The position numbers were made by a program, and so were the translations under genes. The notes under the pieces were generated by a model that did not search any database, was not told where the DNA came from, and saw only the letters and a program-made list of their open reading frames with translations. DNA of 49,659 bases, filler included, from Catajapyx aquilonaris (taxonomy: Eukaryota): NCBI GenBank assembly GCA_000934665.2. It is 2 parts of 2 records of this genome, joined end to end, with 100 filler letters (N's around TTAATTAATTAA, not from the genome) between each part and the next. Parts side by side here need not be neighbours in the genome. Positions count along the whole stretch, not along the records: positions 1 to 24,767 come from JYFJ02005461.1; 1 more part is not named here. One strand, 5' to 3'. Positions 1 through 22,088 of the stretch are shown here, piece by piece. Each line of letters opens with the position of its first letter. The stretch's first letter is position 1.

Positions 1-209
1 GGAAAGCGTAGTCGATGGTTAACGAGCGAGGTCAAAGTTATCCTGGCCAGACTGTAACCCGCATGGCGGGACAATACTTGATTCACTGATGATACATCTC
101 TCATGACGTCCTCATCCCTGACATCATAGAGCCTCTTCGGAACCTCATAAAACCCACCACTACTGTACGACTAAAGAGATATTTGTACACGTTTGGATAA
201 TCTCCTGCT

Positions 210-1485: not shown

Positions 1486-4400
1486 GAAGACGTGTTCGGC
1501 TTATTTTTTCCTGAGAATGTGGATTGTACTGCTCCATCCAGAGTACGTCGGAGGCAAACGTAGATCTCCAGATGATTCGCCCTTCTATCTTTAGACTGCA
1601 GTAAAGGAGGGACCATTGCAGCAGAAGTCCACCGCAGGACTACAAAGCCGAGACACGCACTTTGGAAGAATAAGAGGGACAAGGTGTGGCACACTGACAA
1701 AACAACATACAAAGCTGGGTTTGACAGTAGTGTTCGGAACTCACAAATATGTGTCACTGGAATAAATTAGCCACATATTTGCCTGCAAATGCGAGATTCA
1801 TAAGTTTCCTCCCTGCAGTATAATTTCATCCCTTCATAATCATGATATGAGCAACCCAGCCCACACTCCCTTTTCTGTTCAAGGCTAATAAACTCTTCAT
1901 ATATATGGAACTATCCCGCACCACAATGCATATTTAATAAAGTTTCGTGCAAAACACCCCACAAGGAGTGAAAGCTGTATGCAAGACCGCCACTTCATTG
2001 GGTTGGCCATAAGAGGCCTTAAACTAAGGGATGGATCCTCCTAGGACCAGTTCGCCGGCTTCCTGGAGTTCCATCACCCCAACGCCTTGACCCCCTAAAC
2101 AACTGGGCATCGGGCTGTCCATTGCCCTCACAATGACTTCTGGACATCCACTCAGGGTACCTCCCGCCGTTGTTACATCGCTGGGGTAAAACTGGTAGGA
2201 AAAACAGGAGGAGGGAAGAAGTCCATACTTTGACGATTCTCTTCTGATCTGGTACAGGAAACAATGTATTTAAGAGAGTAACCCGATTTTATGCGGACAC
2301 AGAATTTGCAAACTGATTCTGGACTTACTCACAATAAACATGGCTTTGGTTGAAGAGGTATATTAAATCTCAAGAGCACATTTTAGAGGCTCGGAGCAGT
2401 GGCCACATCACCTGTGGTGGACATCATAATATGCAAATAAGACTTTTGTATGCTGGCCATTGCCTTATGGTCCTAGTATTGCGAGAAGCTGCTCCATTTG
2501 GAGATGAAGGCAAAAATAATTCTGATGTCAAAGAACTCCACAAAGAACTACTATGGATGCATCATTTGGTCTCTAACGTCTCCCTTGTTGCCCTGTTGCA
2601 AATTAAATAAACATCCAGGCAGGTATGACTCCCTGTGCATGAACTTTCCTTTTAATTTCTGATATTGCAGAAGGTTTATCATATGAATCTCGAGAGACCA
2701 TAATAAAATTTTCAGTCACAAAAGATTTTATACTCACAGTAGCATGAGAAATATTGCCACACAAAACTGTACAAGTACACACTTTTTAATGATGCATAAG
2801 TAATATGTGGCTCCCTGACATATAGTATAATATCACACAGTGCAAAAAGGGTTCTCAAATGTGTGATCAACAAAGTAAGCAATGAATGAAAGCTTTTTAA
2901 ACAAAGGTATTGATCAAAGTTATATACATGCTTTGTTTGACATCATCAAATAATACCAAAAATACACCTTCACAAACAGCTCTTTCTTAAACATGAGCTA
3001 AATACGACAGCATACGATAACACAAGAATACTTCAATGAAATTAACCAAATCAATAACCACCATTCTTCAATCTCACTGTAAGAGTCCGAGAAGTTCAAC
3101 ACTAGGTGAATCCAACTCAAGGGCAGAGAAATAGACTCAGTCTATAGATGATTCAGATGAACAAAATCAAAAGGGGTTTGCTCCTTGTGTGAAATGAACT
3201 GAATAACTTCCTGCAAAAGGAACCATTAATACCTTTCCAAAATGTAACACACTTATACTTCCTGCAACCCCGAATAGATGATCAGATAGTACTACAGTAA
3301 TGCACATAACACATGATCACTAACTCAAACGAGATATAGACTTCTTACTAAGGTAAGAGAATATATAAGATAAACGACGTTAAGAGAAACCTCGTAACTC
3401 CCGACGTACACACACAACAGTACTTTATATTCCAAGTGTGATATCAACTAAAAGAGAAATAAGTCAAGAGCGTCCGAAAGGACGACCGGACTTGTCAAGC
3501 ACCATAATGCCAGTTCTCTTTACACTTAGCTGAGCTGCCCAAAAAAAACATTCAGGTAGGAAAAAAAGAAAATATAAGGTGTGGGTAAGAAAATAGAATC
3601 AAGTAATATGCAATTGAAGTCCATGTGGGATAGCCATGTTACACCCCCAAAATGTTACATCACCTTATCTTAGGAGAGGAAACGTCCGAGATGATTTTAG
3701 CACAGGAAAAATTATTTTGATATGACCAGCGATGCATGAACGTCGCTTGGATGGGAACTCAATTCAGACCACAGCATTTAACCCTTTGAACATGACACAG
3801 TTAAAGTATTGCATCTAGCGCAAACTTCGATTTACATGGAGAAAAGACAAAACATCCATAAATTCCATTGTAAATTACTTAAGAGGAATTCGACTTATAA
3901 GTTAGTTCAACCTAGTTTTGATGGAGGCTTCACACCAAAGGAAAATGGCATGCAAATTTCTAGTTGGAAAACTTGCTATGTCCAGAAGGAATAAAAGGCA
4001 GTTTGCATCTACCACCTGCAAGTCTACAACCCTGGACGTATCCCGTTCTTATTATTATCATCAGAAATACTATGTATTACAAAGTACATGCAGTACGGTC
4101 ACAAAACATCTCATTCTTCTCAGGTAAGTAAAAAGAGCGACTGTTCATATGGCAATGTGATCGCTTTGACCTGAAGATTGGTGATCCAGCCTATTTCATA
4201 TCAAGTGCAGTTTGTGAGTAGAGGAAAAATATAACTGCCTAACGCACATCACTGACGATCAACATAAATATGTATCAGACGCTCTAAAGGCCAAGTTCCC
4301 TACAAAATTCGAAAGCGACTTTGACAGCGGACCACATAGAAGATGATAGGATGATGAGCCTCGACTGAAGTTGCCAAAACATTGACAGAGTAGGCAGGCG

Positions 4401-7400
4401 GTCATTTATGCCTGAGAAGAACCTTGATGTGCAGAACCAAGCTAAACAAGTGCTAAACAGATCCCCACGTGGCATATTTTCAATCTATTAAAGGGGAGGC
4501 AAATGTACTGGTGTCCTCCTTGTGCAAGCCCCTCTTCAGGGCATCATTCTAAAAACTCAATGCATCGTCCATCGCTACATTTAAGGAGATTTGGTGTCCA
4601 TGCTGAACAACATAATAGTCAAGTAACTGATCATGAGGATGACAGGGGCCAACACAGGGACTAAAAAGTGTCATAATTAAACACATATGAATGTTCGTTC
4701 AGTTCTCAACACAGTGCACCTAAACCCACCATATGAACACAATGTCGGCCTGGTGTAGGCTACTTCAACCGTGTAAATATCTTGGGATGGTGCAACACTT
4801 TTCCACCAAATGGGCTTGCACCAGTGGGCAGCAAATTACCATAAATCTGAGAATGCCTACCGAATTGTGTGTTATGTGCATGGATTAGAAGAGAGTGGTC
4901 CTGTGGTCCTATGCCAACATCTGTGTGGGGGAAAATAGCTATCAAACAATAGGCCTATAGCTCAAGAATTTCCTGCTCTGCGGGATACAAGTGACTGGCA
5001 TTCCAGAAGTCACACATCTACGCAGGAGGGTCAATGAGCGACATAGAATCAACAAATGTACCAATGGATGAACAGATCATATACAAATACGTACAATTAT
5101 TAGCACTTGTCAATATCGTTTTTTCCTGAAGTGCTATTAAAAGTCTGCATTACAAAAATTGGAACAAAAACGGGCATCCAAGTACTACCACGCACTCTCT
5201 ATTTCTATTTTAAAAACCCGTAAATGTTGATCTAATAAGAACTGTTCATTACCAAACTGCTCTGAGCGGACACGACTTCATTGTAGATATGTTCTAGTTT
5301 CAGCCATGAGTGTGCAGTTTGGTTGCAAAGACCGTGATCATATCACCATTTTAAACCAGGCCTAGATGGAACCAGCTATTCCACCATCTGGAATACAAAG
5401 GAAGCTGCCGTATTATCCTGTGCTATTGGAATCAGTTCTCAAAAGTAGATGTCACACGAAAATAAGTGCAAAGCGACTGCACAGAAGTACATACGTAATC
5501 TAAGAACTCACTCTATGCCTTCACACACTGAATCTAATTACTGTACATAAAAATACAGCTCCGACTATTTTGTGCTGCTATTTGCTAGATATTTTAATTG
5601 CATAAGAGAAATACATGTGGTCAACAAGAAGAGGATGATGGCATCGCTCAACCAGGGGATGATAATGTGAGTGTGCACCCTTCTCAGGACTCATCCTACT
5701 ACGAACCCTTGACACCACTGCCCATGACGGGAGCCCAGAGACGTAGGTTTTACGGAGACCTTGGCAGATGCAAATAATCACTGAGTAAAACAGAAGTCAG
5801 TTGCACTTATCATACTAATGGTGCAGACGGCCAAGTTTTAATAACACCTTCTGGGCCATGGGACGGACAGGGTAAATGGACAAACTGTGACTGAAATAAT
5901 AATTATTTATATCCACTATATCCACTCTGAACTTTTCTTTCTCCTGGAACATGGGCTGGAGCCACTACTCGCTGCTTACGAGATCTCCACTCCTTACAAT
6001 TTATGCTCAAATGTCATATACTCACTGGGCTTCATTTTAAAATGTAGTTTAAATCAATCTGCACGAAGCGATGCAATACTATCGTGTTTCATTATTCGCA
6101 ATTAGTTCAACAGCATCATTGCATACTTTATTATAATGTGTTCAGCCATTATGGTTAAAAATAAATTGGTCAAACACATTCTGTCCACCACAATTGATTG
6201 TAAAGATGGACAAACATTTTGCTGTAATTTTTAAAAAATCAATACATGATGGTGTATTGGCCTTCATTATGGCTTAACCATAATATCTTAGGGCTCATAT
6301 ATCCAAGCAATTTGTACATTCACCCAATTCAGGAGAACCTATTAGGAGAAAGGATGACGATAATGCAACAAGAATGGTTCCAACATACCAAGAAGATACC
6401 ATTTCATTAATTACTTATCCGCCTTTATATAAATGAATTGCTAAATAATCTCATTCAAACCACGATGTTCCCAGCTCCTGCTGCTTCTAGTGTACATTAC
6501 ATTACAAATGCTGCCATTACATGTGCTTGTTGCTGATTAAATTAATAATAAAATCTGGAATATTGAATAACGTGGAACAGGTGCAAGATTCTTTTTAGAG
6601 CAACTTGGACATTAGAAAAACTATCATCAAACTGCATGCCCTTATATGCAATGCGCGAAATAGCTTTCACACAAAACCAGTTGGATTTCCGGAACAGTCC
6701 ACAAGTCTGGAATAGGGAATTAGTGACAAAAGTTGATGTTACTTATTAATTCATGATATTCCCACAATCAAATTGCTGGGACTGTCCTCCAGTTCTGATG
6801 CCTGAATAGCGCTTCACATACTGAAAATGCTTTGAGATGACATGACCTGAGTTCTGCAATTGGCCCCACACCAGATCATACAGCGCTAACAACAGGGCTC
6901 AACGAGAAATAACTCATAGTGAAAGTACAGTACCAAACTGCCCAATGGCTCTGACAGTCACATATTACACAAACTAGTGTCAAAAATACCTGAAAATAAT
7001 TGACCAAATTAACTTCAATGCAGCACAAACCAAGGAGGCTCGTCTTCATGGAACACGGCCCAAAAGGGGACGCCATTGGTGCCACTCATTCCCTTCAACT
7101 GATGGACCCCAATGCGGTGGACACACTCACCTGGGTCTGAACCAGCATCGGGGCTGGAAGCAGGGCGGGCGGGCGGCCCCGGGGCGGACCTACTACGGGC
7201 AGAACAGCGGGCACGAACCGGGTTCCATCAAAAAGGGAAGAACATTCTGGAACGTTCTGAAAGGAAATAAAAAGGTGGATATCACATCGCAGTTAGTAAT
7301 AGCGGCTATTTGGAATAACCGTTATTTCATGTAATGGAAAGTGGATAGTAACGCTGCTTTTTAAAATAGCGTTTAGTGTCATCGTTGCATGAGAAGGGGG

Positions 7401-7654
7401 GGAGGAAGGGGTGGCGGTGGGGAGGAAAATTCCGAAACGGACACCACTTTCTCAGGGCCGGTCGCAGGGCCGGCCGCCTCTGGTCCCTTCCGCAGTGGGT
7501 TGCAGCAGGACGTCGTTGTTGAACATGACGACCTGCACCCCTGGAAATTGACCACCCTGGCGATCCTCCTCCGCGCCTCCAGTACTGCCAGTGGCTGAAC
7601 GCACGCATTGGTGCGCCTGTCGTTCATTTGCTTCCACGGATGAAAAGGGCATTT

Positions 7655-7795
7655 CCGGACATGGGTACCGAAGCCCTCCGGCTTGGGTGGCCCTACCAGT
7701 AGACGAAGCTACCGCCGGCATAGCTCTTGGGGTCATGGGAGAAACGCAAACCCCACCACCACGATAAGGTGGGGATACCATCGGGGGGACGACTC
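7655..7795 (-). mobile_element. 5' UTR of an RTE-clade LINE (or RTE-derived SINE)
   Basis: Minus strand reads CCCCACCTTATCGTGGTGGTGGGGTTTGCG...ATGACCCCAAGAGCTATGCCGGCGGTAGC...CTGGTAGGGCCACCCAAGCCGG, the conserved leader of RTE/Expander/BovB-type elements. Confidence 0.65.
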
Positions 7796-8020
7796 TTCAG
7801 TGGTTATACTGTACTATTTATTCCACGACATATAAAAGTTGACGTTGTTTTTGCGTCTATAGGTCCAATAATGTGGAGGCCTAAACGACTCACAACAAAT
7901 CGCGTGTAATAAAATGTGAGTTACATGCACATGCAAAGTGACAGGAAAACCACAAAAGGGAGAGGGAGAAAAAAGTGCGATAAGCTTGCTGATTAGATAA
8001 TAATAGGGCAGAGTTGAAGC

Positions 8021-8026
8021 TCAGTT
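8021..8026 (+). promoter_or_regulatory. Initiator (TCAGTT) of ankyrin gene A
   Basis: Exact arthropod Inr consensus with an AT-rich stretch 20-30 nt upstream. Followed by a plausible non-coding exon (donor GTAAGT 8097, acceptor TTGCAG ending 8182) before ATG 8214. Confidence 0.45.
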
Positions 8027-8213
8027 GATGTACGCATGAACGAGTGTGCTGTACAGACAAGCAGGTCTGCGAAGGACACACTGCAATATCTGGTTCGTAA
8101 GTACAAATTGAGTATAGATTTGAAATATTTGACAGCATTGCAAGATGGCAATGATTGTCAGGTTTATCTCGCATGATTGCAGGCGGTGCATAACTTCCAT
8201 CACAACGTAAGGC

Positions 8214-9299
8214 ATGGGCGACTACGAAACACAAGGCAACAAAGACATCCACTACGCTGTCCTTCAAAACAGCGAGTCGATATGCACGATACTGCTAAAC
8301 AAAAATGCAGATAATATTAGCGCCAGAAACAAATCTGCAGCAACTCCTCTACACCTGGCATGTCGGAAAGGGTTCGCGGGATTGGTCAATATGTTGGTGA
8401 GGCGAGGTGCAAACCTCAGGTTAGTGGATCAAGACGGCAACACCCCGCTGCATCAAGGAGCCAGAAGTGGCAACGTTCAAATCTGCAAAATTCTACTACA
8501 CAAGGACAAGGACTTGGTGAACATCAAAAATAATGAAGGGAGGACACCACTGTTCTACGCTGCTGAGAAGGGTAATAAAATGTCGGCCGAAACTTTGCTG
8601 GACTATGGCGCCGACAGGGATGTGACAGACAGTCCAGGAAAGACGCCCTTAATAGTTGCTATTGAAAATGACAAAAGTGAAGTTGCGATGACCCTACAAC
8701 TTTATGTGGCGTGAGTATTACAATAATTCTGCTTTCAGAAACCCAGTAATGACTAACTAAATGACTTTCCGCAGGAAAGAACCTCTCCCACTGGTCGAGG
8801 AAAACCCTGCAGTGGAACCACGAGGAGCTGGACCAATGCAGATGGTGAGAATAATTGTCGTGTATTGTTCAACTGACACACTTAAAATTTGATCTCTTAG
8901 GCTGCCATGACACCACTTAACAATAAGCTGCATAACGCTGCCAAGAGAGGGGCTGCGTTCGTCATCATTAAGGCTATAGATGATGGAGCAGAGATAGACA
9001 GCAAAGATCCTGGAGACGGAAAGACTCCCCTGCACCATGCATCTGAAGCAGGCCATGACTCTGCTGTCCGTAAGTTACTGGACAAAGGAGCCGACCGCAC
9101 ACTGCTGGATCTGGAAGACAACACTCCGTTGCATTTGGCCTGCATCAACAATCGATTTGAAGCCATCAAATTGCTAGTTACTAAAAACCGCGAACTAATC
9201 ACTCAGAAGAACAAGAAGGGAAGTACCCCACTGACAATTGCAGAAGGGAACGATGATCAAAATATTTATGAATTCCTATTAACAAGAAACGAAATGTGA
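8214..9299 (+). CDS. Ankyrin-repeat protein A: 5 ANK + Pro-rich linker + 4 ANK, 321 aa
   Basis: Exons 8214-8710, 8775-8844 and 8901-9299 with GT-AG introns (phase 2 then 0; 966 nt in frame). Motifs TPLHLAC, GNTPLH, GRTPLF, GKTPLH. Linker KEPLPLVEENPAVEPRGAGPMQM. AATAAA at 9388. Confidence 0.85.
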
Positions 9300-9586
9300 G
9301 CAGGGCCTCTCAGTTAATCATTCTACTCGGTACTATTTGCTTTGTTAATTTAGTTTGTCTTTTTTAAAATGAACATTGATATGCAAAAATAAATGTAGTT
9401 AGTGCGTGACATGTGTCCATATTACAATATTACACTATCTCGCCACGACTACTGGTATTCAGAGGAGATGGAACACTTCTCTAAACTTGCATAACACGAC
9501 TGTAATGGTGGAATCGGAGCAGCACAAATGTCATCCAAAGGAGCAATAAAGTGTAAATGCAACCAAAAACGTTGGTTATATGTTTA

Positions 9587-9852
9587 TTTTTTAACGAGCT
9601 CAACCGAGTGCGGACCCACACTCGCGCAACGTCGCCAGTGTTACTCCTCAACATCGCAAAAGTCGGCCATATTGTTACACCCCCCCCCCTAAATGGTGGT
9701 AACCCACCCCCCTAAAAGGGCTGTTCCCTCTAATGGGGTAAAGCTAAATAATAAAATAATAAAAAAAATTTAAAATGTTACCCCCTCCAACTTACTGTTG
9801 GAAACAAATTTGCGCGAACTGTGTTGCGCACTCAGTTGCGCTCCTTTAAAAA
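9587..9852. mobile_element. MITE-like element with ~25-bp imperfect TIRs
   Basis: TTTTAACGAGCTCAACCGAGTGCG at the left; reverse complement of the right end is TTTTAAAGGAGCGCAACTGAGTGCG. Confidence 0.5.
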
Positions 9853-10151
9853 TTCATCTATAGTACACACTGTATTCTCAGTCCAATTTGCTATCGGTTG
9901 TCATAGCTTCTATCATGTTTACACAATTGCACATTTCTCTCGGTTCATCTTGCCCACCTGATATACTGGTGCTGATATCATTGTCGAGGTCGTCAGGAGC
10001 TTACCAATAATTCTGTGAGTGTTCTTGGAAGGCGATAGTACACTGGAAACAAGCGGAGTTCAGGTCAGTTTACTTGCACCATTTCTATTAGTAGCCTCAG
10101 ACAAAAATAGTTTCGGACAATAAGCGCTACGGAATTCCGCAGGTGTCTAGG

Positions 10152-10553
10152 ATGGACCAGAACAGCGACAAGGGCAACACCATCCTGCACTACGCAGCAT
10201 TGAACAACAACGTGGACCTCGTGAAGCAACTATTGAAGTGCGGTACCAACGCCAACATCCAGAACAGTTCCGGAACCACGGCTCTTCACCTAGCAAGCAG
10301 ACACGGTTTCCTGGAAGTGGCAGAGTGTCTCCTGAAGCACGGTGCGGACGGAAAGATCGAAGACTTGGATAGAAACACGCCTCTGCACGATGCCGCTGCC
10401 TATGGGGAAGTTGGGATCGTGGAACTGATTCTGTCCAAGGATCCGGGCGCCTTGAAGGTGAAGAACACGCGCTCGCAGACGCCCATGCAGCTGGCGGCCT
10501 CACAGGGGCATGCCAAAGTGGCTCAGATTTTGAACCAGGTCGGAGGTCTATGA
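10152..10553 (+). CDS. Ankyrin-repeat protein B: single module, 4 ANK, 133 aa
   Basis: Single coding exon with GNTILHYAA, GTTALHLAS, RNTPLHDAA, SQTPMQLAA. 5'UTR intron 10064-10142 (GTCAGT...CCGCAG), first ATG 10152, AATAAA at 10641. Confidence 0.85.
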   Translation: MDQNSDKGNTILHYAALNNNVDLVKQLLKCGTNANIQNSSGTTALHLASRHGFLEVAECLLKHGADGKIEDLDRNTPLHDAAAYGEVGIVELILSKDPGALKVKNTRSQTPMQLAASQGHAKVAQILNQVGGL

Positions 10554-10897
10554 CCTGTGACGAACCTGATGACTGTAAATAATGACGTCAGATTGTAATT
10601 AAAATAGTATGTACATTGTTTACTCTTAATTAGTGATCTTAATAAAAGCATAACACGCTTTGTGATATGGAGTCACCTCTGCTAGAAGCAACTCAGCGTT
10701 ATCATTGTGATTATAGCAATATCTAATAAAGTCACTCATGCGATGTGTGTTCACTAATCTGAAGTTTTATGTACTGAAGGCGTGTATCTGCTCACTCTCC
10801 TAAAATATCTTACTTTGCACGGGATACCTTCGATTTCACCAAATAGGACGCCTAGTGGTTGGTGTGACGGTAGTCCTTAAAGTGGAATTATGGAAAA

Positions 10898-11017
10898 TAG
10901 TGGTGTCGTACCGGTGGCGCCATGAGCCGTTGGAAGCAAAAGCGTTAACCAAATTCATTGCTTCGATTCGCTCTTATGCCGCCATTGGCTCGTGGCACCA
11001 CCAGTACGACACCATTA
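10898..11017. repeat. Short hairpin or mini-MITE with 31-bp inverted arms
   Basis: TAGTGGTGTCGTACCGGTGGCGCCATGAGCC versus reverse complement of the right arm TAATGGTGTCGTACTGGTGGTGCCACGAGCC (4 mismatches). Confidence 0.7.
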
Positions 11018-11753
11018 ATGTCCAGGAGTGTACTGGTACGTCGGGTTTACATGTGGAAAATCCTTCTGGCGTTTCCGATACTATTGAACACAGGTCATGT
11101 CCTCTGCTTACATTAGTCAAAGGAAATGCACAAATAAATCCAACAGTTTGCAATCTTCAACGGCCATAGTAAAGCCACGTCATTGGAACGATAAGATTAA
11201 TCCACGCTGCAAATTATAATTATTATTGACTATTATAAGCCAATTAGTGCCTTTCCTAGCCCTGCTGGCAAATTATGTGATATGATTGTTGGTTTGTACC
11301 AGTTTATCCGAAATTCCAAAATGTGTAAGTTTTTTTTTTTGCCGTTAAACATGACACATCCCAAATAGAAAATTCCATGTGATTGTGACATGACTAGCGT
11401 CATTACCTGTATCTGCCCGTGTAGGTGGATTACTAAACAACTACGTATATAATAATCAGGTTGGTGGGTAGCGAGTCACTTGCCAGCCGAAGCTGAAGAA
11501 GAAAGGATTGGTGAATACCGTGCTAGTGTCAAGGCGACTGAAAGGTAAGCTGTGTTCAATATTGAATTTGACGAAATGCAACGCCTTTTCGTACCTTGCA
11601 GACGTAATTGGGAGATGATTCAGGTACCTGCAGACTGCAAATTCTGTTATCAGTCGAGACAGTGCAATTGACGCCACTACCAGCGAAGTGAGTTTTAATG
11701 ATGACATGGGTTTTAGCAGTGCAGGGCTCTAGATAGCGGAAGGAAGAAACCCA

Positions 11754-12978
11754 ATGAACGACCTGCTGCACGATGCAGTCAACAACCGAGACTTGCCCAC
11801 AATGAAGTCGCTAGTAGAGGGTGGCCGAAACGTGAATGTACGTAACAGGTTCGCCGAAACACCTCTTCACCTGGCCTGTCGAATGGGGTACATCGAAGGG
11901 GCAGAGTACCTGGTGATCAAGGGCGCAGACACAAGCAGGAGGGACGAGAGAGGTAACACGGTCCTGCACGAGGCGGCCAAATCCGGAAACCCCTTCTTGT
12001 GTGAGAAGTTCATCTATCTGCTTCCAACGCTGAACAAGGCTGGAAGAAGCGCACTGCACATAGCGGCCGAGCACGGAAAAGTGATGAGTGTCCGTTTGTT
12101 GCTGGATTACGGAGCTGAACCTCTTCTTAGAGACCAGTCTGGAATTACCCCGGCCAATCTGGCGATGAGTAATGACCACAGTGACGTCTCGCAGGCTATG
12201 ATCAATCACAAGTATGCATCTAAATAATATTGTAAGTGACAAGCTTTGTGCTCATAATCTCTCTTCCAGGCCTCAACAACTGCGGTCGATTCCGATAGCT
12301 CCACCCAGGTCTACATCGGCAGCTACGCCTGCACCTGCAGAACCACAGGTAAGAATGGAGAGTTTTGGTATCATTAAGAAGGAGCCAATGCAATTATGCA
12401 ACCATGGCTATCTGGCTATGAGAAGCCACAAAGGTGGGACAGAAACGAAGAGGAAAAAAGAAGAGAGGAATGACATTTACCATTATTATCAGATGTCCTA
12501 ATAAATGTTATCAAATATATCGCTTCGACACTGAATGTACACGATATCGTTTCAGGCTCAGATGTCTAGAAGTGTTCAATCACTGACTTCACTGTTCAAA
12601 GCCGCCAGAGACGGCGTAGTGCCGAACATTCACAGGGCCTTGGCAGACGGAGTGGACGTCGACAGTCGCGACATGTCTGGAGACACTGCGATGCACATCG
12701 CGGCCAAGAGAGGTCAAGTCGAAGCCATCAATTTTCTAATCGAAGAAGGTGGAGATGTATCAACGGCAAACAACGATGGAAACACCCCGTTGCACTTGGC
12801 TTGTCAGAAAGGCCATTTAGAAGCTGCCAAGTGTTTGGTGTACGAAAAGCCGTTGACTGCTATGGCTAAGAATAAGGAGGGGAAAACGCCACTGAAAATA
12901 GCCACGGGATATGCAAAATCACAAGAAAGTAGTAAGGCATACCAGGAAATTGTGACTCTCTTGAAAGATCATTCATAA
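11754..12978 (+). CDS. Ankyrin-repeat protein C: 5 ANK + Pro/Ala linker + 4 ANK, 319 aa
   Basis: Exons 11754-12211, 12270-12348 and 12556-12978 (phase 2/0; 960 nt). Linker KPQQLRSIPIAPPRSTSAATPAPAEPQ. Upstream non-coding exon ends AAAG|GTAAGC near 11544. Close paralog of D and E. Confidence 0.88.
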
Positions 12979-13339
12979 CTACTGTGTCAGGAGGCTAGTC
13001 CTGCTAATATGATTAAAGCTGCATCAGGACTAGTGTTATAATCAGATGCTATTAAAATTTTGATTGTTTGGTGGCCATATTACATAGCTTCCATTTTCGT
13101 AGAATTCAAATTATACAATACGCTTGATACTGTATAACCAATTTTGCTATTAATCACTGCGTATTGGTGGTAGACGTTTACAATAATTTTAAACTACTTT
13201 CATTTACATGGTTTTGAAGGACAATCTTGTATCCACTAACGTTATGTACTTCTTAGTAAAAATAAACTTTTCACTCTTTCCCCAAGAGGAACTTTTTCTG
13301 ATAATACATGATATGTATCCTGGTTCCACAACCCTGGTA

Positions 13340-13760
13340 GACCGTGTTCATTTGAATTCGATAAGCACAGATGAATTTTTGTGCAACCAATGACCTTGTA
13401 GGGTGTGTAGACCGAATTGGCCGATAGCAGACTGCAAATTCTGTTATCAGTCGAGAGTGCAAGAAGCGCCATTTATACTAGAAAACTATGAGAACGGAAA
13501 ACTGATGAATGCCATTTTGTTTATGGACTGCGGAGCCGACCATCGCCTGAAAGACCAGGATGGAATCACCCCGGTCAAGCTGGCGATAAGTAATGACCAG
13601 AGTTACGTCACGCAGGCTATGATCATTCACAAGTATGCGTCGTACTTGTAAGAAGCAAGCTTTGTGCTCAAGCTCAACAGCTCTTTTTCAGACCTCAGCA
13701 AGTCCGACCGATTCCGGCAGCTCCATTCAGGCATACACCAGCACAATGAGCACAGCAGGT
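13340..13760 (+). pseudogene. Internally deleted ankyrin paralog of the C/D/E family
   Basis: 5'UTR-intron sequence (...TACTAGAAAACTATG) is fused directly to mid-repeat 4 (AGAACGGAAAACTGATG...). Repeat 5 and the linker exon 13692-13758 remain, with an in-frame TGA. No third exon. Confidence 0.8.
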
Positions 13761-14918
13761 ATAAGACAGTTTTATTCAATGACACATTACTTAGGCTTGT
13801 AAGTTGAAAATTTTCACACATTTTTCACTGTCAGGGCTTCGAATGGATGCCCGTACTGAATGCCGAAGGTGAATCCAAATCTTATCATGATTTCGGAAGC
13901 TCTTTTTACGGCCTTTCGTAGTATTAGTATCACAATGAAAATCGGCGGAAGTAAATATTTATATCTCAATATGGCGGAATTATTTTGGTTTTATTATAAC
14001 TCAAAGTTAGACATTTTTCAGAATAAACGTTTCATTCTTTAACGTCTTCAACGCAGTAGATATTTCTAATGTTACATTACTTGGACCCTGATCCTACAAC
14101 CAGAGAAGCTGGTGTGGGCAATAGGGCATAGGAAAGGAAGTACACTACATGTTACATAGGGCCTCAATAGATGACTAATTAAATCATATTTAAACTGTAC
14201 TGGAGGAGTGAAAATAATGCAATTCGGACCCTTTTGGAGCGAGAGATATTGACAACATAATCTGTATTGTTGCGAATTGCGCACATGTGTTAGAAATGCC
14301 ATATTAACAAAAAAAAACAACTACGAACCCAAGTGACTTAGTCAGATATTAACGGGGTTATTCCAGACCATGTAGGTCCTTAAACCCCGGGCCCCACATA
14401 GGGCCTATATCATCGAACCCAAGTGACTGTTACATAATCCTGCAGTTAGCTTTAAAATCGTCATCAGAAAAAAACAGTCAAAATTTGCTTTGTTCCCGAA
14501 ATAGTTGCTCTCCATTAAAAAAAAAAAAAAAACTATCATTCAGCGGATAACTGCTGCGCCCTTTCTTACCCTTAACCGGCAAATTTTGCGATATGACGGC
14601 AGCCTTGTGCTATCTAAACCACTACTTATCTAATCAACTTGGAAGCATACGAGACATTAGCAGTCGCAGTGAGAAGAAAGGATTACTTGAATGCAGTACT
14701 AGGATCAAAGCGGCTGAAAGGTAAGTCATATTCACTTGAATGTAATAAGCGCCAATGGCTTTCTGTGCAACCATTGACCTTGTAGAGTAAATTGGGAGAT
14801 GATTGGGAGGTACCTACACACTGCAAATTCTGTTATCAGTCGAGATAGTGCAAGAAGCGCCATTACTAGAAAACTATGTTTGAATCGTGACCTTGGTTTT
14901 AGCAGGGCTGTGCTCTAG

Positions 14919-16187
14919 ATGGCGGGGGGCAGAAGCCCTATGAACGACCTGCTGCACGATGCAGTCAACAACCGAGACTTGCCCTCAATGAAGTCGCTAG
15001 TAGAGGGGGGCCGAGACCTGAATGTACGCAACAGGTGGGCCGAAACGCCTCTTCACCTGGCCTGTCGAATGGGGTACCTCGAAGAGGCAGAGTACCTGGT
15101 GAGCAAGGGCGCAGACACGAGCAGGGCGGACGAGAACGGTAACACGGTCCTGCACGAGGCCGCCAAATCCGGTAGCAAGATCTTGTGTGAGAAGTTAATC
15201 TATCTGCTTCCAACGCTGAACAACGCAGGAAGAAGCGCTCTGCACACCGCGGCCGAGAATGGAAAACTGATGAGTGTTCGTTTGTTTCTGGACCACGGAG
15301 CCGATCCTCTCCTTAAAGACCAGGATGGAAACACCCCGGTGAAACTGGCGATGAGTAAAGACCGCAGTGACGTCTCGCAGGCTCTGCTCAATCACAAGTA
15401 TGCATCGTAATTGTAAGAAGCAAGCTTTGTGCTCAAACTCAACATCTATATTTTTCAGACCTCAGCAAGTCCGACAAATTCCGGCAGCTCCACCCAGTCC
15501 TGCACCTGCGGCTATGGCTGCACCTACAGCACCACAGGTACTAGTGAAGAGTGTTGGTGGCCACAGTTTTGCTTGACGACACATTTTCATCTGTCACACA
15601 ATAATACTTACACTTGGAAAATGTGATTTCAACATGGCTACAAAATGTTCACGAAACATCCACAATTTTAATGTTAATTTTTGTGGCCATTGGTGAATGA
15701 TTTAAAAAAATTATTGGGTGACGTAACAAGATCGATTCTCGCACCTAGATAGCTTCGACACTAACGTACACGATCGTTTCAGCCTGAAAATGTTCAATCA
15801 CTGTTAAAAGCCGCCAGAGAAGGCAAAGTGACGAACATTCAGATGGCATTGGCAGACGGAGCGGACGTCAACAGTCGAGACAAGCTAGGAGACACTGCGA
15901 TGCACATAGCGGCCAAGAGAGGTCATGTCGCAGTCATCAATTTTCTAATAAACGAAGATGGAGATGTCTCAGCGAGGAACCCCGATGGCGACACGCCGCT
16001 GCACTTGGCTTGTCAGAAGGGCCATTTAGAAGCGGTCAGGTGTTTAGTGACGGAAAAACCGGCTATCATTATGGTTAAGAATAACTTACAAAAAACGCCA
16101 TTGACAGTAGTGACGGGATTGGCAACAGGGGATGGAAATACTGAAGTGTACAAGCAAATTCAGGATCTCTTGAAAAATAATTCATAA
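14919..16187 (+). CDS. Ankyrin-repeat protein D: 5 ANK + Pro/Ala linker + 4 ANK, 320 aa
   Basis: Exons 14919-15397, 15459-15537 and 15783-16187 (963 nt). Linker KPQQVRQIPAAPPSPAPAAMAAPTAPQ. Non-coding exon donor AAAG|GTAAGT at 14721. Confidence 0.88.
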
Positions 16188-16849
16188 CTACTGTATCAGA
16201 AGACCATGTCAGTGTTATTAAAATTACATCAGAACGAGCATTAAAATGACCTATTAAAATTTGACAGTTTCAATGCCATATTACATGGATTCAATTTTTA
16301 ATAACTCAAATTATAGGCTTGATAACATGTAATTTGCCAGCAGTCTCCACATATGGGTGGTACGTGGTAGCATTTCCCCCCTCTTTTAAAATTATTTCAT
16401 TTGCATGATTTACATTACACGTTTTTCCAATGTTATGTCGAAGTCAGAATAAACTTTTCATACCATAAAACTGATCCTTTCCCTCAAAAGTATTTCTAAT
16501 GTTACATGACATGTACCCTGGTCCTAAAACCAGGGAAGCTGGTGTGGGTGACAAGACAAAGTAAATGAAGATCCAATAGGGCTTCAGTAGATGGCAAATT
16601 AAATTATGTTTCAATCGTAACTGGAAGAGTTAAAATAGTAATTCAGACCCATTTGTATCCCAAACTATTAAAAATTGTTCACAACAATAGTATTGTTGCA
16701 GGTGCCACCGTGAATCCTGTAGTTAGCATTAAAATAATCAGAAAAATTAGTTGCCAGAAATAGTTGCAGTTAAATAAAAACACTATCATTCAGCCGATAA
16801 GTAGTTCGACCTTTCCTAGAAATCCTCTTGGCAAATAAATTATGCGATA

Positions 16850-16873
16850 TGACGTCAGCCTTGTACTATAAAA
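16850..16873 (+). promoter_or_regulatory. CRE palindrome (TGACGTCA) and TATA box (TATAAAA) upstream of ankyrin gene E
   Basis: TGACGTCA at 16850-16857 and TATAAAA at 16867-16873, in a block alignable with the D and C upstream regions, about 100 nt before the non-coding exon donor. Confidence 0.4.
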
Positions 16874-17158
16874 CCACTGCGTATCTAATCACGTTGGAGG
16901 CAAGCGAATCACTTGCCAGTCGATGTAAGAAGAAAGGACTGCTTGCATGCCTGATAGTGTCAATAAGCTGAAAGGTAAGCCATATTCACTTGAATTTAAT
17001 AAGTGCCTATGACTTTTTGTGTAACCATTGACCTTGTAGACCAAATTGGCATGTTATTAAAGGACATGGAGGCTGCATTTCAGTCGAGATAGTGGAAGAG
17101 ACGCCAGCGTATAGTTTGTTTTCATCGTGACCTTGGTTTTAGCAGGGCTGTGCTCTAG

Positions 17159-18245
17159 ATGGCGGAAGGCATAAACCCAATGAACGATGTGCTGCATGAT
17201 GCAGTCAACTACAGAGACTTGCCCACAATGAAGTCTCTAGTAGAGGGTGGCCGAAACGTAAATGTACGTAACAGGTTCGCCGAAACACCTCTTCACCTGG
17301 CCTGTCGAATGGGGTACATCGAAGAGGCAGAGTACCTGGTGAGCAAGGGCGCAGACACAAGCAGGAGGGACGAGAGAGGTAACACGGTCCTGCACGAGTC
17401 GGCCAAATCCGGAAACCCCATCTTGTGTGAGAAGTTCATCTCTCAGCTTCCAACGCTGAACAACGCAGGAAGAAGCGCACTGCACACCGCGGCCGAGAAT
17501 GGAAAACTGATGAGTGTCCGTTTGTTTCTGGACCACGGAGCTGAACCTTTTCTTAGAGACCAGTCTGGAATCACCCCGGCCAATCTGGCAATGAGTAATG
17601 ACCACAGTGACGTTTCGCAGGCTCTGATCGATCACAAGTATGCATCTCAATTGTAAGCAATATTTGTGCTCAAAATCTCTTTTTCAGATCTCACCAAGTC
17701 CACCCGAATCCGCCAGCCCAGATCGGGCCTGCACCAGCACCAGGAGCACAACAAGTAAGAGAGTTCTGTTCAATGACACCTGTGTGAGAGTGGTATATGA
17801 AAATATATTCTACATAATATCGTTTCAGGGTCCAGTGTCTGAGTGTGTTCTAGTACTGTTCAAAGCCGCCAGAGAAGGAAAGGTATCCCACATTCACAAG
17901 TCCTTGGCAGACGGAGCGGACGTCAACAGTCGAGACAACAACTCCGGAGACACAGCAATGCACGTCGCGGCCAAGAGAGGCCATGTCGAAGCCATCAATT
18001 TTCTAATCGAAGAAGGTGGCGATGTCTCAACAGTGAACCACGATGGCGACACGCCGCTTCATTTGGCTTGTCGGAAGGGTTATTTAGAAGCTGCCAGGTG
18101 TTTGGTTACCGAGAAGCCGTTGATAGCTAAGGCTAAGAATAAGGAGGGGAAAACGCCAATTACAATAGCCACGGGATATGCAAAAGGGGCAGGAAATACT
18201 AGGGCGTACAAGCAAATTGTTAGTCTTTTGAAAGATCATTCGTAA
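17159..18245 (+). CDS. Ankyrin-repeat protein E: 5 ANK + Pro/Ala linker + 4 ANK, 320 aa
   Basis: Exons 17159-17637, 17688-17754 and 17829-18245 (963 nt). Linker KSHQVHPNPPAQIGPAPAPGAQQ. Confidence 0.88.
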
Positions 18246-19087
18246 CTACTGTATGAGTAGGATCAGTCCTTTCGAGTACTCTTCAAGGAGTTTGATCAAT
18301 TAACAGTAGGTAAATGTGTGGGTGCTGATGGAAGACTGCGTTGAGCTACATCCGACCAGTTGCCTTGAAGTAAAAAGTACTGCATCATACCTGGATTCTT
18401 AACGTGATGGAAACGTGGACATGGATATGTCCGATGTGAATTAGTACAGTAATTTTATTTGTTCATCATGTGTACTTTGACCAACTCGCGAATAAATCCA
18501 GCAATGCGCTACAAAAATCAAAATTCCTCAAGTGCAATTTATCTATCATCCTAAACTGGATCGAGATATTTAAGACTCCATTATAAATACTATTGTACAG
18601 TTGAATATAGTGTGCTCATATAAAATACTTTAATATTTATTACATAAATGACTGTATTACAATCATCTACTGTAAAAAATTATTATTTGGAAGTCGATTT
18701 ATTATAACACAAATTATGAGTTTGGTGCAGCGCAATTTTGCCAGCAGTCATTATCATTACATGAGGGTGGTATAGCTATTGTTCCCTGTATTGTCAAGCC
18801 ATTTCACTTACATTGTTTTTAAAGGAATAGGATGTATCGACTATGTATGCCTAAAATGGGCCTCCAATGTTACTTCGTGACAAAAGTTGCTCATCACCTG
18901 TAAGAGATTAATATTATTTCCATACCAGGGACTAGTGCAAATTAAATCAGTTTTGAATTGTACTAGAGGCAACGCCGTACAAATAATGTAATTTTTCAGA
19001 CCCATTTGGTTATTAAAACATGCTTCATATAATTGTATTGTTTTACATGCGTTTTTAACGCCACGGACATCAAAATGCCAACTGTGA

Positions 19088-19328
19088 GGGGATAAGGAGC
19101 CCGCCTGCTAATCGGGAGCTCCTGGGTTCGAATCACTGAGCTGGCGACCCTGACCATGGTTTTCCATGGTCCTTTCCAGGACAATTCCGGGGTCGTTTTC
19201 GTAAAAATAGGCCACAGCCGCTTCCTTCCTTCCCTATCCCTGGTCCCATCCAATGGTGGTAATCCACCCCTCTAAAGGAGCCAACGGCTCTAGCCCGGGG
19301 TATGATAAATATAAACAAACAAATAAAT
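19088..19328 (+). mobile_element. tRNA-derived SINE, family 1
   Basis: B box GGTTCGAATC, body GGTTTTCCATGG...AATAGGCCACAGCCGCTTCCTT, A-rich tail. Second copy at ~32450-32620. Confidence 0.75.
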
Positions 19329-22088
19329 TAGACGAAATAGTTCAAACGGAACGACATTAATTAAGAAGGCGAATCGCTGCTATTTGTATCACTACTCATA
19401 TGAGCTACACCATAACATACTTTCCAGAAGAACATTAATGAATAACCTTGATCATGATGTTCATTAAGACTTATGGGTGTCAATCCAGACGAACTACGAG
19501 ACACTAATCACGACCTACTACGACACACTAAGCCAATCGTAATAACATTTTGCATCATGCAGGACATGCCAATATGAACATATTAATCATGAAGATCTAC
19601 GGAGGGGAGATCATTATTGCTTCCTTTAGCAGCAAAATTCAACAATCATTCCTTTTAAGTACACTCATAACATTTAGAGAGTGACTTACCCACCAAAAGA
19701 TGACTCATGCTGACGACACAGAATGGCAACAATTTTTGTTTAAAATGTTTTTTCCGCATCAAAGAGTATTTTGGATCCATCAACGGGACTAATTAGTTAA
19801 GAGAGCAAATTTTAAATAAAACGCGACTGGTTTTGTGGAACCATCAAATGCATCCTTAAAATGTTCTTGTGATCACGTCCAAGGGCGAAAATCCTACCAG
19901 CTACTTTATCGATTTAATGCCGAGCAAAAATATACGAGCAGTATGCAATCACACTAAGTGCACATCTGGTGTTAGTTCAAAAAGGTATAATTTCAATTAA
20001 CAAAAAAAAAGAGTGCAATATAACTACTAGGCAGCACACAGTGAAGCTGAAATTGCAAGTGAAATATCTCAACATTGTACATACACAGTTGGAATATTTA
20101 TAATATACCAAAAAAAATTCATTTGAAGCGAGCACAATTATATTAAGAGTGACGCTTAAGTGAAGATGTCAATAACCTTTCACAAAAAATTTACAGAAAA
20201 GAATGTGAGTATACAGAAAATGACTCCGAGCGACATGTAGAGACAAAATCGTCCCGATGAAACTCTTCATGACGACTTAAGCCATTCATTTCTTAGATTT
20301 GAATACTGAAAAGTAGCTTTCTGATATCGCGTCGCCGGGCCGCCATTTCATTACGAGACACCCAACATGGGAACTTGAGTTAGCGCCATACAATTAAAGC
20401 ACCACAAAAACTACCATTAGCGATATTTATTATTTCATACAAAAGAGGAAGACGATTCCTCCAGAAATTCCTGCAATTCATATATAATTACTTAAGCAAT
20501 ATTAAAACCAAGAATAATTCTGATATAGGAACGCGACACATGCAACAAAAAAATTGCGACATACGTACGTACGACGCTCCCCGCCAGCACACATAACAAA
20601 TACAGTCCAGTCTCAATAATTCATTGTTACAACAGTTATTGAAGATATAGAGGGACAATGGACAGCGAATGACGCTATATTAATTGAGCGGAGAGATTAA
20701 ATCCACTACGGCATAAAATGCAGATTGACGATAATGAACTAGAAGTGTGCTTAGACCAGCTTACTGACACACATGAGTTCGTGAACTACAGCCAAAAAAA
20801 ACCTGACGGACATCGCAATAATCAAGTGCTGAAATAGCAGCACCAAATGACGACTTTCCTCAGGACTAATGGCAATTGCGATAATTACAATAGGCAATTA
20901 ACAGACATAATCTGCAGAAATTGCTACTAATAACAACATAGAGACAAAAATGCACGTCACATTACTATTAGGCAACATGATGCAGAGCTATTGTGAATAA
21001 ATATTATTCGCTTCCTAATCACGTATGAAGGCTCTTTTAAGTGGGACATAAAACATTGCTTCTCTTTGCCGAGCACTGTGAGTTAGCAAGAACCGTGATG
21101 ACATTATTGGACGACTATTCTGTGTGATGAGTTAACAGCCTCGAATTTTTAAACGACTTCCGATGTTGCGAATAAATCTTGGCCAATAATTATAATTTCT
21201 TAATTGCACCATTTTTGAGTTTGTCTTGTATTGTGATTCGTAATTACGTATTTAATTACACCACGTAAACGTGTAGACAGTGCATATGAGGTGGCAAAGA
21301 AATAGGTTTTTATCATTCCAATAAGTAAACAGCTCCAAACGATTGCAGTAATTGTTCTGGAATACACAGCGGTTATAAATACAGATATAACTTTCAAGGG
21401 CTAAAAATTGCCTTTATTCACAACGGAGGAGGGCAAAGAATTAGACGAAGGCCGAAGGACGACTAAGAGGCTACACTATCAGTACGAACGAAGGTCATTT
21501 TTATTATAGTCAGTGCATCAACATGAAGTCATCGGACCCTATACGTGAATTAGCAGGAAATCCAGTCAGCTCTGAAGAAGCCATCTTATGACGAGGTCTT
21601 TGCATTGTTTTTAATGTTGTAGAATGTGGATCAGACTTTGTCATGGTTATGTAAGTACCTTAACTAAAAACCTAAAGCCTATTAAAGTAGTCCACACCAC
21701 GCTGTAACAGATGGACGGAAAGTTCACCTCGCTCCGCCAATCCCCAGGTCAAACCATTGACAATAACTACGGAGATGTGACCAAGACTGTGAGTATGGAG
21801 ACCTCACAAACAGTAACTTTGTTGATCAGATATAGTGAGAACGCATCTGACAGGTGTGCTAACATTTTTCATTCCTATTGGCGAAGTTCTGCGAATTACA
21901 AAAACAGATGACTCACTGATCATGAGACAATTCTTAGTAAGTCAATCACAATAATTGCATATTTCACCATTGTTGTTTTCAACGTGCAGGGTGACGATCT
22001 TTCCAGGCTGGACAGGTCATGACACAAATTGGGGCACGGTTAAGAATACCATCTGACGAAGCAGATGATTCACATAATAAAATCATGG

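What the first reader, a model, noticed from the sequence alone, without database searches (positions are those of the whole stretch)
8214..18245. Tandem array of two-module ankyrin-only genes, a candidate family of bivalent intracellular binders
Seen: A, C, D and E each have an intronless 5-repeat ANK exon, a 67-79-nt micro-exon coding only a Pro/Ala/Gln linker, and an intronless 4-repeat ANK exon. Intron phases (2 then 0) and lengths (321, 319, 320, 320 aa) are kept although A is very divergent from C/D/E. There is no signal peptide, TM segment or catalytic domain. A one-module gene (B) and a dead copy lie in the array. Established: ANK stacks are binding scaffolds, and short ANK-only proteins include IkB-like inhibitors and polydnavirus vankyrins. 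Inference: a lineage-specific birth-and-death family of two-headed adaptors, decoys or sensors, possibly immune- or symbiont-related. I do not recognise it as a described family.
Basis: partly seen in the sequence, partly recalled or inferred. Interest (0 to 1): 0.8.

Follow-up and report, generated by a model that had tools for sequence, protein, structure and literature searches.

The report
Tandem two-domain ankyrin-only gene cluster
A 10-kb stretch of an animal genome holds five expressed genes and one dead remnant that encode nothing but ankyrin repeats; four of them join a five-repeat and a four-repeat binding domain through a short flexible proline-rich tether, which is a tidy but unremarkable gene family of unknown function.

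Summary
Genes A, C, D and E (+ strand, 8214-18245) each have a 5-repeat ANK exon, a 67-79-nt micro-exon coding a Pro/Ala-rich linker, and a 4-repeat ANK exon. Intron phases are 2 then 0, and the products are 321, 319, 320 and 320 aa. Contigs of one public run (library type not on record) skip exactly all eight predicted coding introns and three 5'UTR introns, all GT..AG. B is a separate 133-aa, 4-repeat gene. The dead copy lacks most of exon 1 and all of exon 3.

AlphaFold models give two self-contained, capped ANK domains (pLDDT 94). They superpose on 5- and 4-repeat designed ankyrins (DARPins) at TM 0.84-0.92. No other domain, signal peptide, TM segment, degron or SOCS box was found.

Four database searches found only generic ANK proteins, at most 45% identical. 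dN/dS among C, D and E is 0.43-0.70, with no clear positive selection.

The best reading is a set of lineage-restricted, non-enzymatic, two-headed protein-binding adaptors. The bivalent function is inferred. Nothing supports an immune, NF-kB or symbiont role. This is a new member of a known kind, of modest interest.

The parts
8183..8710 (+). Gene A, exon holding the ATG (8214) and the 5-repeat N module. An upstream 5'UTR exon ends at 8096.
   Evidence: Model. Contig joints 8096>8183 and 8710>8775. Pfam ANK.
8775..8844 (+). Gene A linker micro-exon (70 nt).
   Evidence: Both flanking joints are seen.
8901..9299 (+). Gene A 4-repeat C module and stop. The 3'UTR reaches at least 9523.
   Evidence: Contig record 1 covers 8900-9523. 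AATAAA at 9388 and 9545.
10143..10553 (+). Gene B, a single coding exon (ATG 10152) giving 133 aa and 4 ANK repeats. Its 5'UTR exon ends at 10063. It has its own poly(A) signals at 10598 and 10641.
   Evidence: Joint 10060>10140 (cut +3) and contig 10140-10539.
11602..12211 (+). Gene C, exon with the ATG (11754) and the N module. The start codon used by D and E reads ATA here. The 5'UTR exon ends at 11544.
   Evidence: Joints 11542>11600 (cut +2) and 12211>12270.
12270..12348 (+). Gene C linker micro-exon (79 nt).
12556..12978 (+). Gene C C module and stop. The 3'UTR reaches about 13283, and AATAAA lies at 13261.
13347..13785 (+). Dead remnant. It keeps the upstream/5'UTR homology, the last ~140 nt of exon 1, intron 1, the micro-exon and part of intron 2. 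It lacks the first ~336 nt of exon 1 and all of exon 3. It is closest to D (84% over 255 nt).
   Evidence: Self-blastn. tblastn 66% over 47 aa. No Pfam hit.
14919..15397 (+). Gene D N module (ATG 14919). By homology to C, a 5'UTR intron is predicted at about 14721-14785.
   Evidence: Joint 15397>15459. AlphaFold pLDDT 94.1.
15459..15537 (+). Gene D linker micro-exon (79 nt).
15783..16187 (+). Gene D C module and stop. The 3'UTR reaches at least 16380.
17159..17637 (+). Gene E N module (ATG 17159). By homology to C, a 5'UTR intron is predicted at about 16975-17039.
   Evidence: Joint 17637>17688.
17688..17754 (+). Gene E linker micro-exon (67 nt).
17829..18245 (+). Gene E C module and stop. The 3'UTR reaches at least 18417, and AATAAA lies at 18491.
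   Evidence: AlphaFold pLDDT 93.8.

Best explanation
This is a lineage-restricted tandem cluster of separately transcribed genes for soluble, non-enzymatic ankyrin-repeat proteins.

In A, C, D and E the product is two autonomous ANK domains. One is a capped 5-repeat stack and the other a capped 4-repeat stack. A 23-27-residue Pro/Ala-rich linker, probably disordered, holds them together and is encoded on its own micro-exon.

Shown:
- The exon structure and its splicing.
- The two confident ANK folds.
- The absence of any other domain or sorting signal.
- The paralogy and its ages.
- Purifying to relaxed selection on the modules, while the linker keeps only its frame and composition.

Inferred:
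- Each domain offers one concave binding face, so one protein can hold two partners, or two sites of one partner. It would act as an adaptor, bridge or sequestering factor in the cytosol or nucleus.
- The better conserved N head would bind a shared partner and the more diverged C head a paralogue-specific one.
- B would be a one-headed relative.
For: Splicing:
- All 8 coding-intron joints and 3 UTR-intron joints appear in contigs of run X1.
- The contigs listed for A and C (records 1 and 4) run past the stop codon into the 3'UTR. Those listed for D and E (records 5 and 6) do the same.
- None of the 14 joints listed links two genes.

Fold:
- The N module has pLDDT 94.1 and 10 helices. Its best matches are N3C-type DARPins, TMq 0.84-0.89 among the ten best.
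- The C module has pLDDT 93.8. Its best matches are N2C-type DARPins. The ten best have TMq 0.83-0.85, apart from one misregistered match at 0.57, and TMt reaches 0.92.
- So each module has its own caps.

Only ANK:
- Pfam finds only ANK families above their cut-offs.
- There is no TM segment, signal peptide, DSGxxS degron, NLS, CaaX or SOCS-like motif.

Old architecture:
- A_N scores 99-102 bits against C/D/E_N but 57-63 bits against their C modules. A_C scores 72-87 bits against C/D/E_C but 42-47 bits against their N modules.
- A agrees with C/D/E in the same repeat at 98 of 233 framework positions, against 448 of 1851 in other repeats. At surface positions the figures are 15 of 48 against 64 of 366.
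- The phase-2 intron splits the same alignment column in all four genes.

Selection:
- dN/dS is 0.43-0.70.
- Exons are 78-94% identical. Intron 2 is 54-57% identical and the upstream 300 nt 72-78%.

Linker:
- It is 61-75% identical at the DNA level, about as diverged as noncoding DNA.
- Its length differences are multiples of 3, and 74-81% of its residues in C, D and E are P/A/Q/S/T/G.
- Engineered multi-DARPins are joined by a 24-aa Pro-Thr-rich linker (passage seen in bioRxiv 10.1101/2020.08.25.256339).

Heads:
- C, D and E are invariant at 16 of 26 N-module surface positions, against 8 of 22 in the C module. This is a trend only.
Against: - No partner, phenotype or expression pattern is known. 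'Two-headed adaptor' rests on what ANK stacks generally do.
- The full-length protein was not folded, so independence of the two heads is inferred from the caps and the linker composition.
- A's similarity to C/D/E (99-102 bits) is no greater than its best match among 397 fetched generic ANK proteins (98.6 bits). A's membership therefore rests on architecture, repeat-by-repeat correspondence and adjacency.
- The N-versus-C difference in surface conservation rests on small counts and I did not test it for significance.
- The lower dS of exon 1 (0.12-0.21, against 0.36-0.46 in exon 3) may reflect gene conversion, not stronger function.
- Run X1's library type is not on record, so that it is RNA is inferred from the spliced contigs.
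Confidence: 0.55

Rival explanations
1. These are IkB-like or vankyrin-like inhibitors. The ANK stacks would bind Rel-homology proteins and hold them inactive. They might replace the missing ankyrin tail of this genome's Relish-type gene.
For: - ANK-only proteins of similar size include IkBs and polydnavirus vankyrins. The abstracts of PMC3757122 and PMC3210807, seen in the listing, describe vankyrins as IkB homologues without degradation signals.
- An earlier scan note (e1-7708468, not checked here) reports an ankyrin-less Relish-type gene in the same genome.
Against: - The architecture is 5+4 repeats in two capped domains, not one 6-7-repeat stack.
- There is no DSGxxS degron.
- The best 60 PDB sequence matches of each module are DARPins, ankyrin-R/B, NOMPC, TRPA1, tankyrase, latrotoxins and others, with no IkB chain.
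- None of the 9 GGGRNWYYCC sites in the window lies within 7000-19500.
Confidence: 0.08
2. The two modules act together as one clamp. The linker lets them fold back onto a single ligand or onto each other (auto-inhibition), so the protein is monovalent.
For: - The linker length is held to 23-27 residues across a split with saturated dS.
- Module order and sizes are fixed.
Against: - The linker sequence is free to drift (61-75% DNA identity, with indels).
- Each module carries complete caps.
- No structural test of the pair was obtained.
Confidence: 0.15
3. These are ordinary redundant duplicates of a generic ANK regulatory subunit, drifting under relaxed constraint. The bipartite form would be an inherited accident with no two-partner logic.
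For: - dN/dS is fairly high at 0.43-0.70. It is not above about 1 at the canonical binding positions (0.25-1.07).
- There is a dead copy in the array.
- Named hits in the searches include PP6 regulatory ANK subunits, gankyrin and tankyrase, all at generic identity.
Against: - All five genes appear in spliced contigs.
- Reading frames, caps and architecture are kept although dS against A is saturated.
- Exons are clearly better conserved than introns and flanks.
Confidence: 0.2

Closest known systems
Designed ankyrin repeat proteins (N3C and N2C DARPins) and flexible-linker multi-DARPins
   Same: - They are the best structural matches of both modules. Among the ten best Foldseek matches TMq is 0.84-0.89 for the N module. 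For the C module it is 0.83-0.85, apart from one misregistered match at 0.57. Identity in the listed rows is mostly 30-37% (range 27-37%).
- They are among the best PDB sequence matches of both modules, beside ankyrin-1/2.
- Each module, like a DARPin, is a short capped stack.
- Engineered multivalent DARPins are joined by a 24-aa Pro-Thr-rich linker (passage seen in bioRxiv 10.1101/2020.08.25.256339). The natural linkers here are 23-27 aa and Pro/Ala-rich.
   Different: DARPins are artificial consensus proteins. The resemblance reflects closeness to the ANK consensus, not descent, and says nothing about targets.
Tankyrase ankyrin repeat clusters (ARCs)
   Same: - One polypeptide carries several self-contained 5-repeat ANK units, each a peptide-binding site (from my own knowledge).
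- Tankyrases are among the named hits at 31-41% identity to the N module.
- Chain 5jhq_A matches at E = 3.4e-29 (N module) and 4.7e-35 (C module).
   Different: There is no SAM or PARP catalytic domain, there are only two units, and the identity is at the generic ANK level.
IkB/Cactus proteins and polydnavirus vankyrins
   Same: They are small intracellular proteins made only, or almost only, of ANK repeats that work by sequestering a partner. B (133 aa, 4 repeats) is vankyrin-sized.
   Different: - Here there are two capped domains instead of one 6-7-repeat stack.
- There is no degron.
- No IkB chain is among the top PDB matches.
- The genes have spliceosomal introns and the GC content of their flanks, so they are not viral.
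Other short ANK-only regulators: gankyrin/PSMD10, INK4 CDK inhibitors, ANKRA2/RFXANK
   Same: They are non-enzymatic ANK stacks of 4-7 repeats that act purely by binding. PSMD10-named proteins appear among the hits at 34-38% identity (P0323 and P0365).
   Different: Those are single-stack proteins with conserved orthologues across animals. This family is bipartite and no orthologue was found.

Membership tests
Ankyrin repeat superfamily (Pfam Ank PF00023, Ank_2 PF12796 and related) | Repeats of about 33 residues matching the ANK profiles above their curated cut-offs | tested here: met
   9 of 10 translated segments score 74-117 bits on Ank_2 (cut-off 27.3). The pseudo-fragment scores nothing.
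Ankyrin repeat superfamily (Pfam Ank PF00023, Ank_2 PF12796 and related) | Helix-turn-helix pairs stacked into an L-shaped solenoid | tested here: met
   AlphaFold pLDDT 94.1 and 93.8, with 5 and 4 helix pairs. Foldseek TMq among the ten best ANK structures is 0.84-0.89 (N module). For the C module it is 0.83-0.85, apart from one misregistered match at 0.57.
IkB / Cactus | One contiguous stack of 6-7 ANK repeats (feature recalled) | tested here: not met
   There are two separately capped stacks of 5 and 4 repeats, split by a 23-27-aa linker.
IkB / Cactus | N-terminal signal-response degron DSGxxS (feature recalled) | tested here: not met
   No DSG..S match in A, B, C, D or E.
IkB / Cactus | Binding of a Rel-homology dimer | not testable with these tools
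   This needs pull-down or two-hybrid tests. No IkB chain is among the best 60 PDB matches.
Polydnavirus vankyrins | Encoded in a viral or proviral segment, as a single short ANK stack homologous to IkB | tested here: not met
   The genes have 5'UTR and coding introns that are spliced out in contigs. They have the GC content of their flanks (0.43-0.46). They are bipartite except for B.
Tankyrase | ARCs followed by SAM and PARP catalytic domains | tested here: not met
   No PF07647 or PF00644 hit, and the proteins end after the C module.
ASB (ankyrin repeat and SOCS box) | C-terminal SOCS box | tested here: not met
   No Pfam SOCS hit and no SOCS-like motif.

The most novel reading that the evidence does not exclude
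The family is a set of natural 'bispecific binders'. A conserved N head would dock onto a shared host machine. One candidate is the ankyrin-bearing kinase, caspase or PARP genes, or the ankyrin-less Relish, that earlier notes report in this genome. A faster-changing C head would recognise paralogue-specific targets. The cluster would then work as a small, evolvable adaptor or decoy repertoire in stress or immune signalling.
Probability: 0.1. Interest if true: 0.6.

Novelty: new member of a known kind. Interest (0 to 1): 0.28.

Why it matters
If the two heads do bind different partners, this would be a compact natural counterpart of engineered bispecific ankyrin binders. It would also give a way into lineage-specific signalling in a poorly studied animal group. 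As it stands it is a well-annotated, expressed, uncharacterised ANK-only gene family. It is useful for genome annotation and as a clean example of a linker micro-exon conserved in position and phase while its sequence drifts. It does not open or settle a larger question.

Tried and rejected
- **Whole genome.** None is held for this window, so family size elsewhere in the genome and synteny could not be examined.
- **Spliced proteins.** Full-length products were not handed to any search or folding tool. All external searches used single exons, so a relative recognisable only over the whole length could have been missed.
- **Sequence searches.**
  - The 'longer' search and the exhaustive phmmer were swamped by giant ANK arrays.
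  - The 112-359-aa search with E's C module gave only 8 weak hits among 51 candidates.
  - The N-module profile gave only generic hits.
  - The organism's own proteins do not appear in that collection. Absence of relatives is therefore weak evidence for lineage restriction.
- **Sequencing runs.** No RNA holder is listed for the stretch. The one holder, X1, has no library type on record. Bins without cover lie between the genes, but a gap in contig cover is not evidence.
- **N module with C module.** It was then accepted and returned 'NOT FOLDED' on the tool's own chain-pairing rule. There is no verdict, and I did not pursue it further.
- **kB-like sites (GGGRNWYYCC).** There are 9 in the window against 4.8 expected, and none in 7000-19500. 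This is a crude consensus and a weak negative.
- **Positive selection at DARPin-randomised positions** (2, 3, 5, 13, 14, 33; the positions are recalled, not from a call). These positions vary more often: 28 of 52 against 75 of 241, Fisher p = 0.002. But dN/dS there is 0.25-1.07, so no claim is made.
- **Rest of the window.** Pfam found nothing in 88 ORFs of 75 aa or more or in 7 ORFs. Rfam and tRNA scans found nothing. The protein atlas found nothing for the 43.2-44.2-kb ORF.
- **Earlier scan notes.** Look-ups by sequence and by place found no look-alike.
- **Literature.** Searches for a described family of this kind and on ankyrin-less Relish gave nothing specific. Only listings and abstracts were seen.
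- **My own error.** In one search the B query was in the wrong frame. The B locus was still detected through the other modules, and B was redone.
Full report
**Observation**

- Genes A, C, D and E lie head to tail on the + strand between 8214 and 18245.
- Each has a first coding exon of 458-497 nt that ends in phase 2.
- Each has a micro-exon of 70, 79, 79 or 67 nt that restores phase 0.
- Each has a last exon of 399-423 nt.
- All introns are GT..AG.
- The products are 321, 319, 320 and 320 aa.
- In C the start codon used by D and E reads ATA. Translation must begin at the next ATG, seven codons further on.

Pfam finds only ankyrin families above their cut-offs in 9 of 10 translated segments. 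The tenth, the pseudo-fragment, gives nothing. tblastn of the modules finds no further ANK exon in the 49.7-kb window.

No ORF of 75 aa or more outside the array has a Pfam match: 0 of 88 and 0 of 7. The array is therefore the only recognisable coding content.

**Transcript evidence**

One public run (X1) holds 47% of the sampled words of the stretch. Its library type is not on record and only contigs are held.

Laid on 7000-19500, its contigs join exactly across all eight predicted coding introns. They also join across a 5'UTR intron in each of A (8096>8183), B (10063>10143) and C (11544>11602). That makes 11 GT..AG joints of the 14 listed.
- Two of the remaining joints are replaced segments at 9677/9682>9807.
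- The third is a back-joint from C's intron 2 to 7696. It is probably a repeat or a chimaeric contig.

The contigs listed for A and C run from within the coding region past the stop codon into the 3'UTR (A to 9523, C to 13283). Those listed for D and E do the same (D to 16380, E to 18417). C's contig ends 22 nt after an AATAAA at 13261. No listed joint links two genes.

The modules are therefore spliced together as predicted and are not exons of one long ankyrin gene. That X1 is RNA is my inference from these spliced forms. D and E carry the same 5'UTR donor and acceptor sequences as C, but their UTR joints were not among those listed.

**Anatomy of the proteins**

AlphaFold models of the D N module and the E C module are confident (pLDDT 94.1 and 93.8). 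They show 10 helices (five repeats) and four helix pairs.

Foldseek places them on five-repeat (N3C) and four-repeat (N2C) designed ankyrins. Among the ten best matches TMq is 0.84-0.89 for the N module. For the C module it is 0.83-0.85, apart from one misregistered match at 0.57, and TMt reaches 0.92. Each module therefore has its own N- and C-terminal caps.

The linker is 23-27 residues. In C, D and E, 74-81% of its residues are P/A/Q/S/T/G.

None of the five proteins has any of the following:
- a hydrophobic stretch (19-residue Kyte-Doolittle maximum 0.74-0.96);
- a hydrophobic N-terminus;
- a DSGxxS degron, basic NLS, CaaX or SOCS-like motif.

B (133 aa) is a single four-repeat stack with its own UTR intron and poly(A) signals. 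It is most like the first four repeats of A's N module (88 bits, 37%).

**Evolution**

C, D and E are 71-78% identical in protein. A is 33-36% identical to them.

At 99-102 bits, A's N module resembles the C/D/E N modules no more than it resembles the best of 397 fetched generic ANK proteins (98.6 bits). Sequence alone therefore does not place A in the family. Four other things do:
- The module match is reciprocal. A_N scores 99-102 bits against C/D/E_N and 57-63 against their C modules. A_C scores 72-87 bits against C/D/E_C and 42-47 against their N modules.
- Repeat by repeat, A agrees with C/D/E more in the same repeat than in other repeats. At framework positions this is 98 of 233 against 448 of 1851. 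At surface positions it is 15 of 48 against 64 of 366.
- The phase-2 intron splits the same alignment column in all four genes.
- The genes are neighbours.

Synonymous divergence between A and C/D/E is saturated, so the bipartite plan is old.

Among C, D and E:

| Measure | Whole gene | N exon | C exon |
|---|---|---|---|
| dN/dS | 0.43-0.70 | 0.41-0.61 | 0.37-0.76 |
| dS | 0.27-0.33 | 0.12-0.21 | 0.36-0.46 |
| dN | 0.14-0.19 | 0.05-0.11 | 0.17-0.27 |

The N exon is less diverged than the C exon. This could reflect gene conversion or stronger constraint.

DNA identity by segment:

| Segment | Identity |
|---|---|
| Exon 1 | 89-94% |
| Intron 1 | 80-86% |
| Micro-exon | 61-75% |
| Intron 2 | 54-57% |
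| Exon 3 | 78-82% |
| Upstream 300 nt | 72-78% |
| Downstream 150 nt | 45-68% |

The linker exon thus drifts like noncoding DNA. It keeps its frame (its lengths differ by 12 nt) and its composition, as expected for a spacer.

Positions equivalent to those randomised in DARPins (recalled, not from a call) vary more often than the rest: 28 of 52 against 75 of 241, p = 0.002. Their dN/dS is 0.25-1.07, so there is no case for diversifying selection.

C, D and E are invariant at 16 of 26 such positions in the N module and 8 of 22 in the C module. This is a trend only.

The remnant at 13347-13785 keeps the upstream region, the last ~140 nt of exon 1, intron 1 and the micro-exon. It lacks the rest of exon 1 and all of exon 3, and it is closest to D.

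**Relatives elsewhere**

| Query and range | Result |
|---|---|
| D N module against proteins of 280-2000 aa | 735 hits among 1588 candidates; the best 120 are 580-1997 aa and 25-41% identical |
| Exhaustive phmmer of the E N module | 271,623 hits at E <= 1e-3; the best 150 are 944-6572 aa and 27-40% identical |
| E C module against proteins of 112-359 aa | 8 hits among 51 candidates, at most 45% identical over partial length |
| Profile of the five N modules against proteins of 73-289 aa | best 120 are 23-44% identical to the D N module |

No close relative appeared. Nor did the organism's own proteins, so the collection covers this lineage poorly, and 'lineage-specific' is suggested, not shown.

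The best PDB sequence matches are DARPins, ankyrin-R/B, NOMPC, TRPA1, latrotoxins and tankyrase. No IkB chain is among the best 60 of 374 and 395 matches.

The literature searches (listings and abstracts only) did not show a described family of this kind.

**What it most likely is**

The shown facts describe soluble proteins made of two independent ANK binding domains on a flexible tether, kept for a long time and expressed from five neighbouring genes. ANK stacks bind other proteins on their concave face. The most economical mechanism is therefore a two-site adaptor, bridge or sequestering factor, with B as a one-site version.

Engineered multivalent DARPins use the same plan, including a 24-residue Pro-Thr-rich linker (passage seen in bioRxiv 10.1101/2020.08.25.256339). 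This is a resemblance in design, not descent.

The rivals are a single-ligand clamp, generic redundant regulatory subunits, and IkB-like inhibitors. The IkB reading fails the tests that could be run:
- the stack architecture is wrong;
- the degron is absent;
- no kB-like site lies near the array.

Earlier scan notes report an ankyrin-less Relish-type gene and ankyrin-fused kinase, caspase and PARP genes in the same genome. I could not check these, and I use them only as a lead for the most novel reading. That the genome is an arthropod's also comes only from those notes.

**Left open**

- The full-length protein was not folded or searched.
- The test of the two modules against each other gave no verdict.
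- No genome is held, so other family members and orthologues could not be sought.

**Verdict**

The bivalent-binder function is plausible but inferred. The immune or symbiont suggestion has no support. This is a new, uncharacterised member of the large class of ANK-only binding proteins, of modest interest.

Noticed in passing
window 19093-19500, with a related copy at 32450-32613: A short repeat reaches a summed contig word-depth of about 1990 in run X1, against 3-23 over the ANK genes. Many contigs break at 19206-19243. It is probably an abundant, transcribed interspersed repeat.
   Followed up: partly
window 12349-12555 (intron 2 of gene C) and 7696: One contig joins 12470 back to 7696 with 39 unmatched letters between them. 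C's intron 2 is 207 nt against 74 nt in E, so it may hold an inserted repeat, or the contig may be chimaeric.
   Followed up: no
window 10891-11024, 28193-28684, 35136-35531, 48578-49099: Long imperfect palindromes (72-93% arm identity) lie between B and C and in the flanks. They look like MITE-like or foldback elements.
   Followed up: no
window 43164-44198 (+): A 344-codon open frame with a Gln/Ser/Pro-rich tail has no Pfam match and no usable protein-atlas hit. It may be a large exon of an unannotated gene.
   Followed up: partly
window 29023-29679 (+): A 218-codon open frame carries repeated GRGRGGRGRGDSS units (RGG-like). It has no Pfam match.
   Followed up: no
window 11733-11756: In gene C the start codon shared by D and E reads ATA, so the protein must start seven codons further on. 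This is a small, recent change of the N-terminus.
   Followed up: yes
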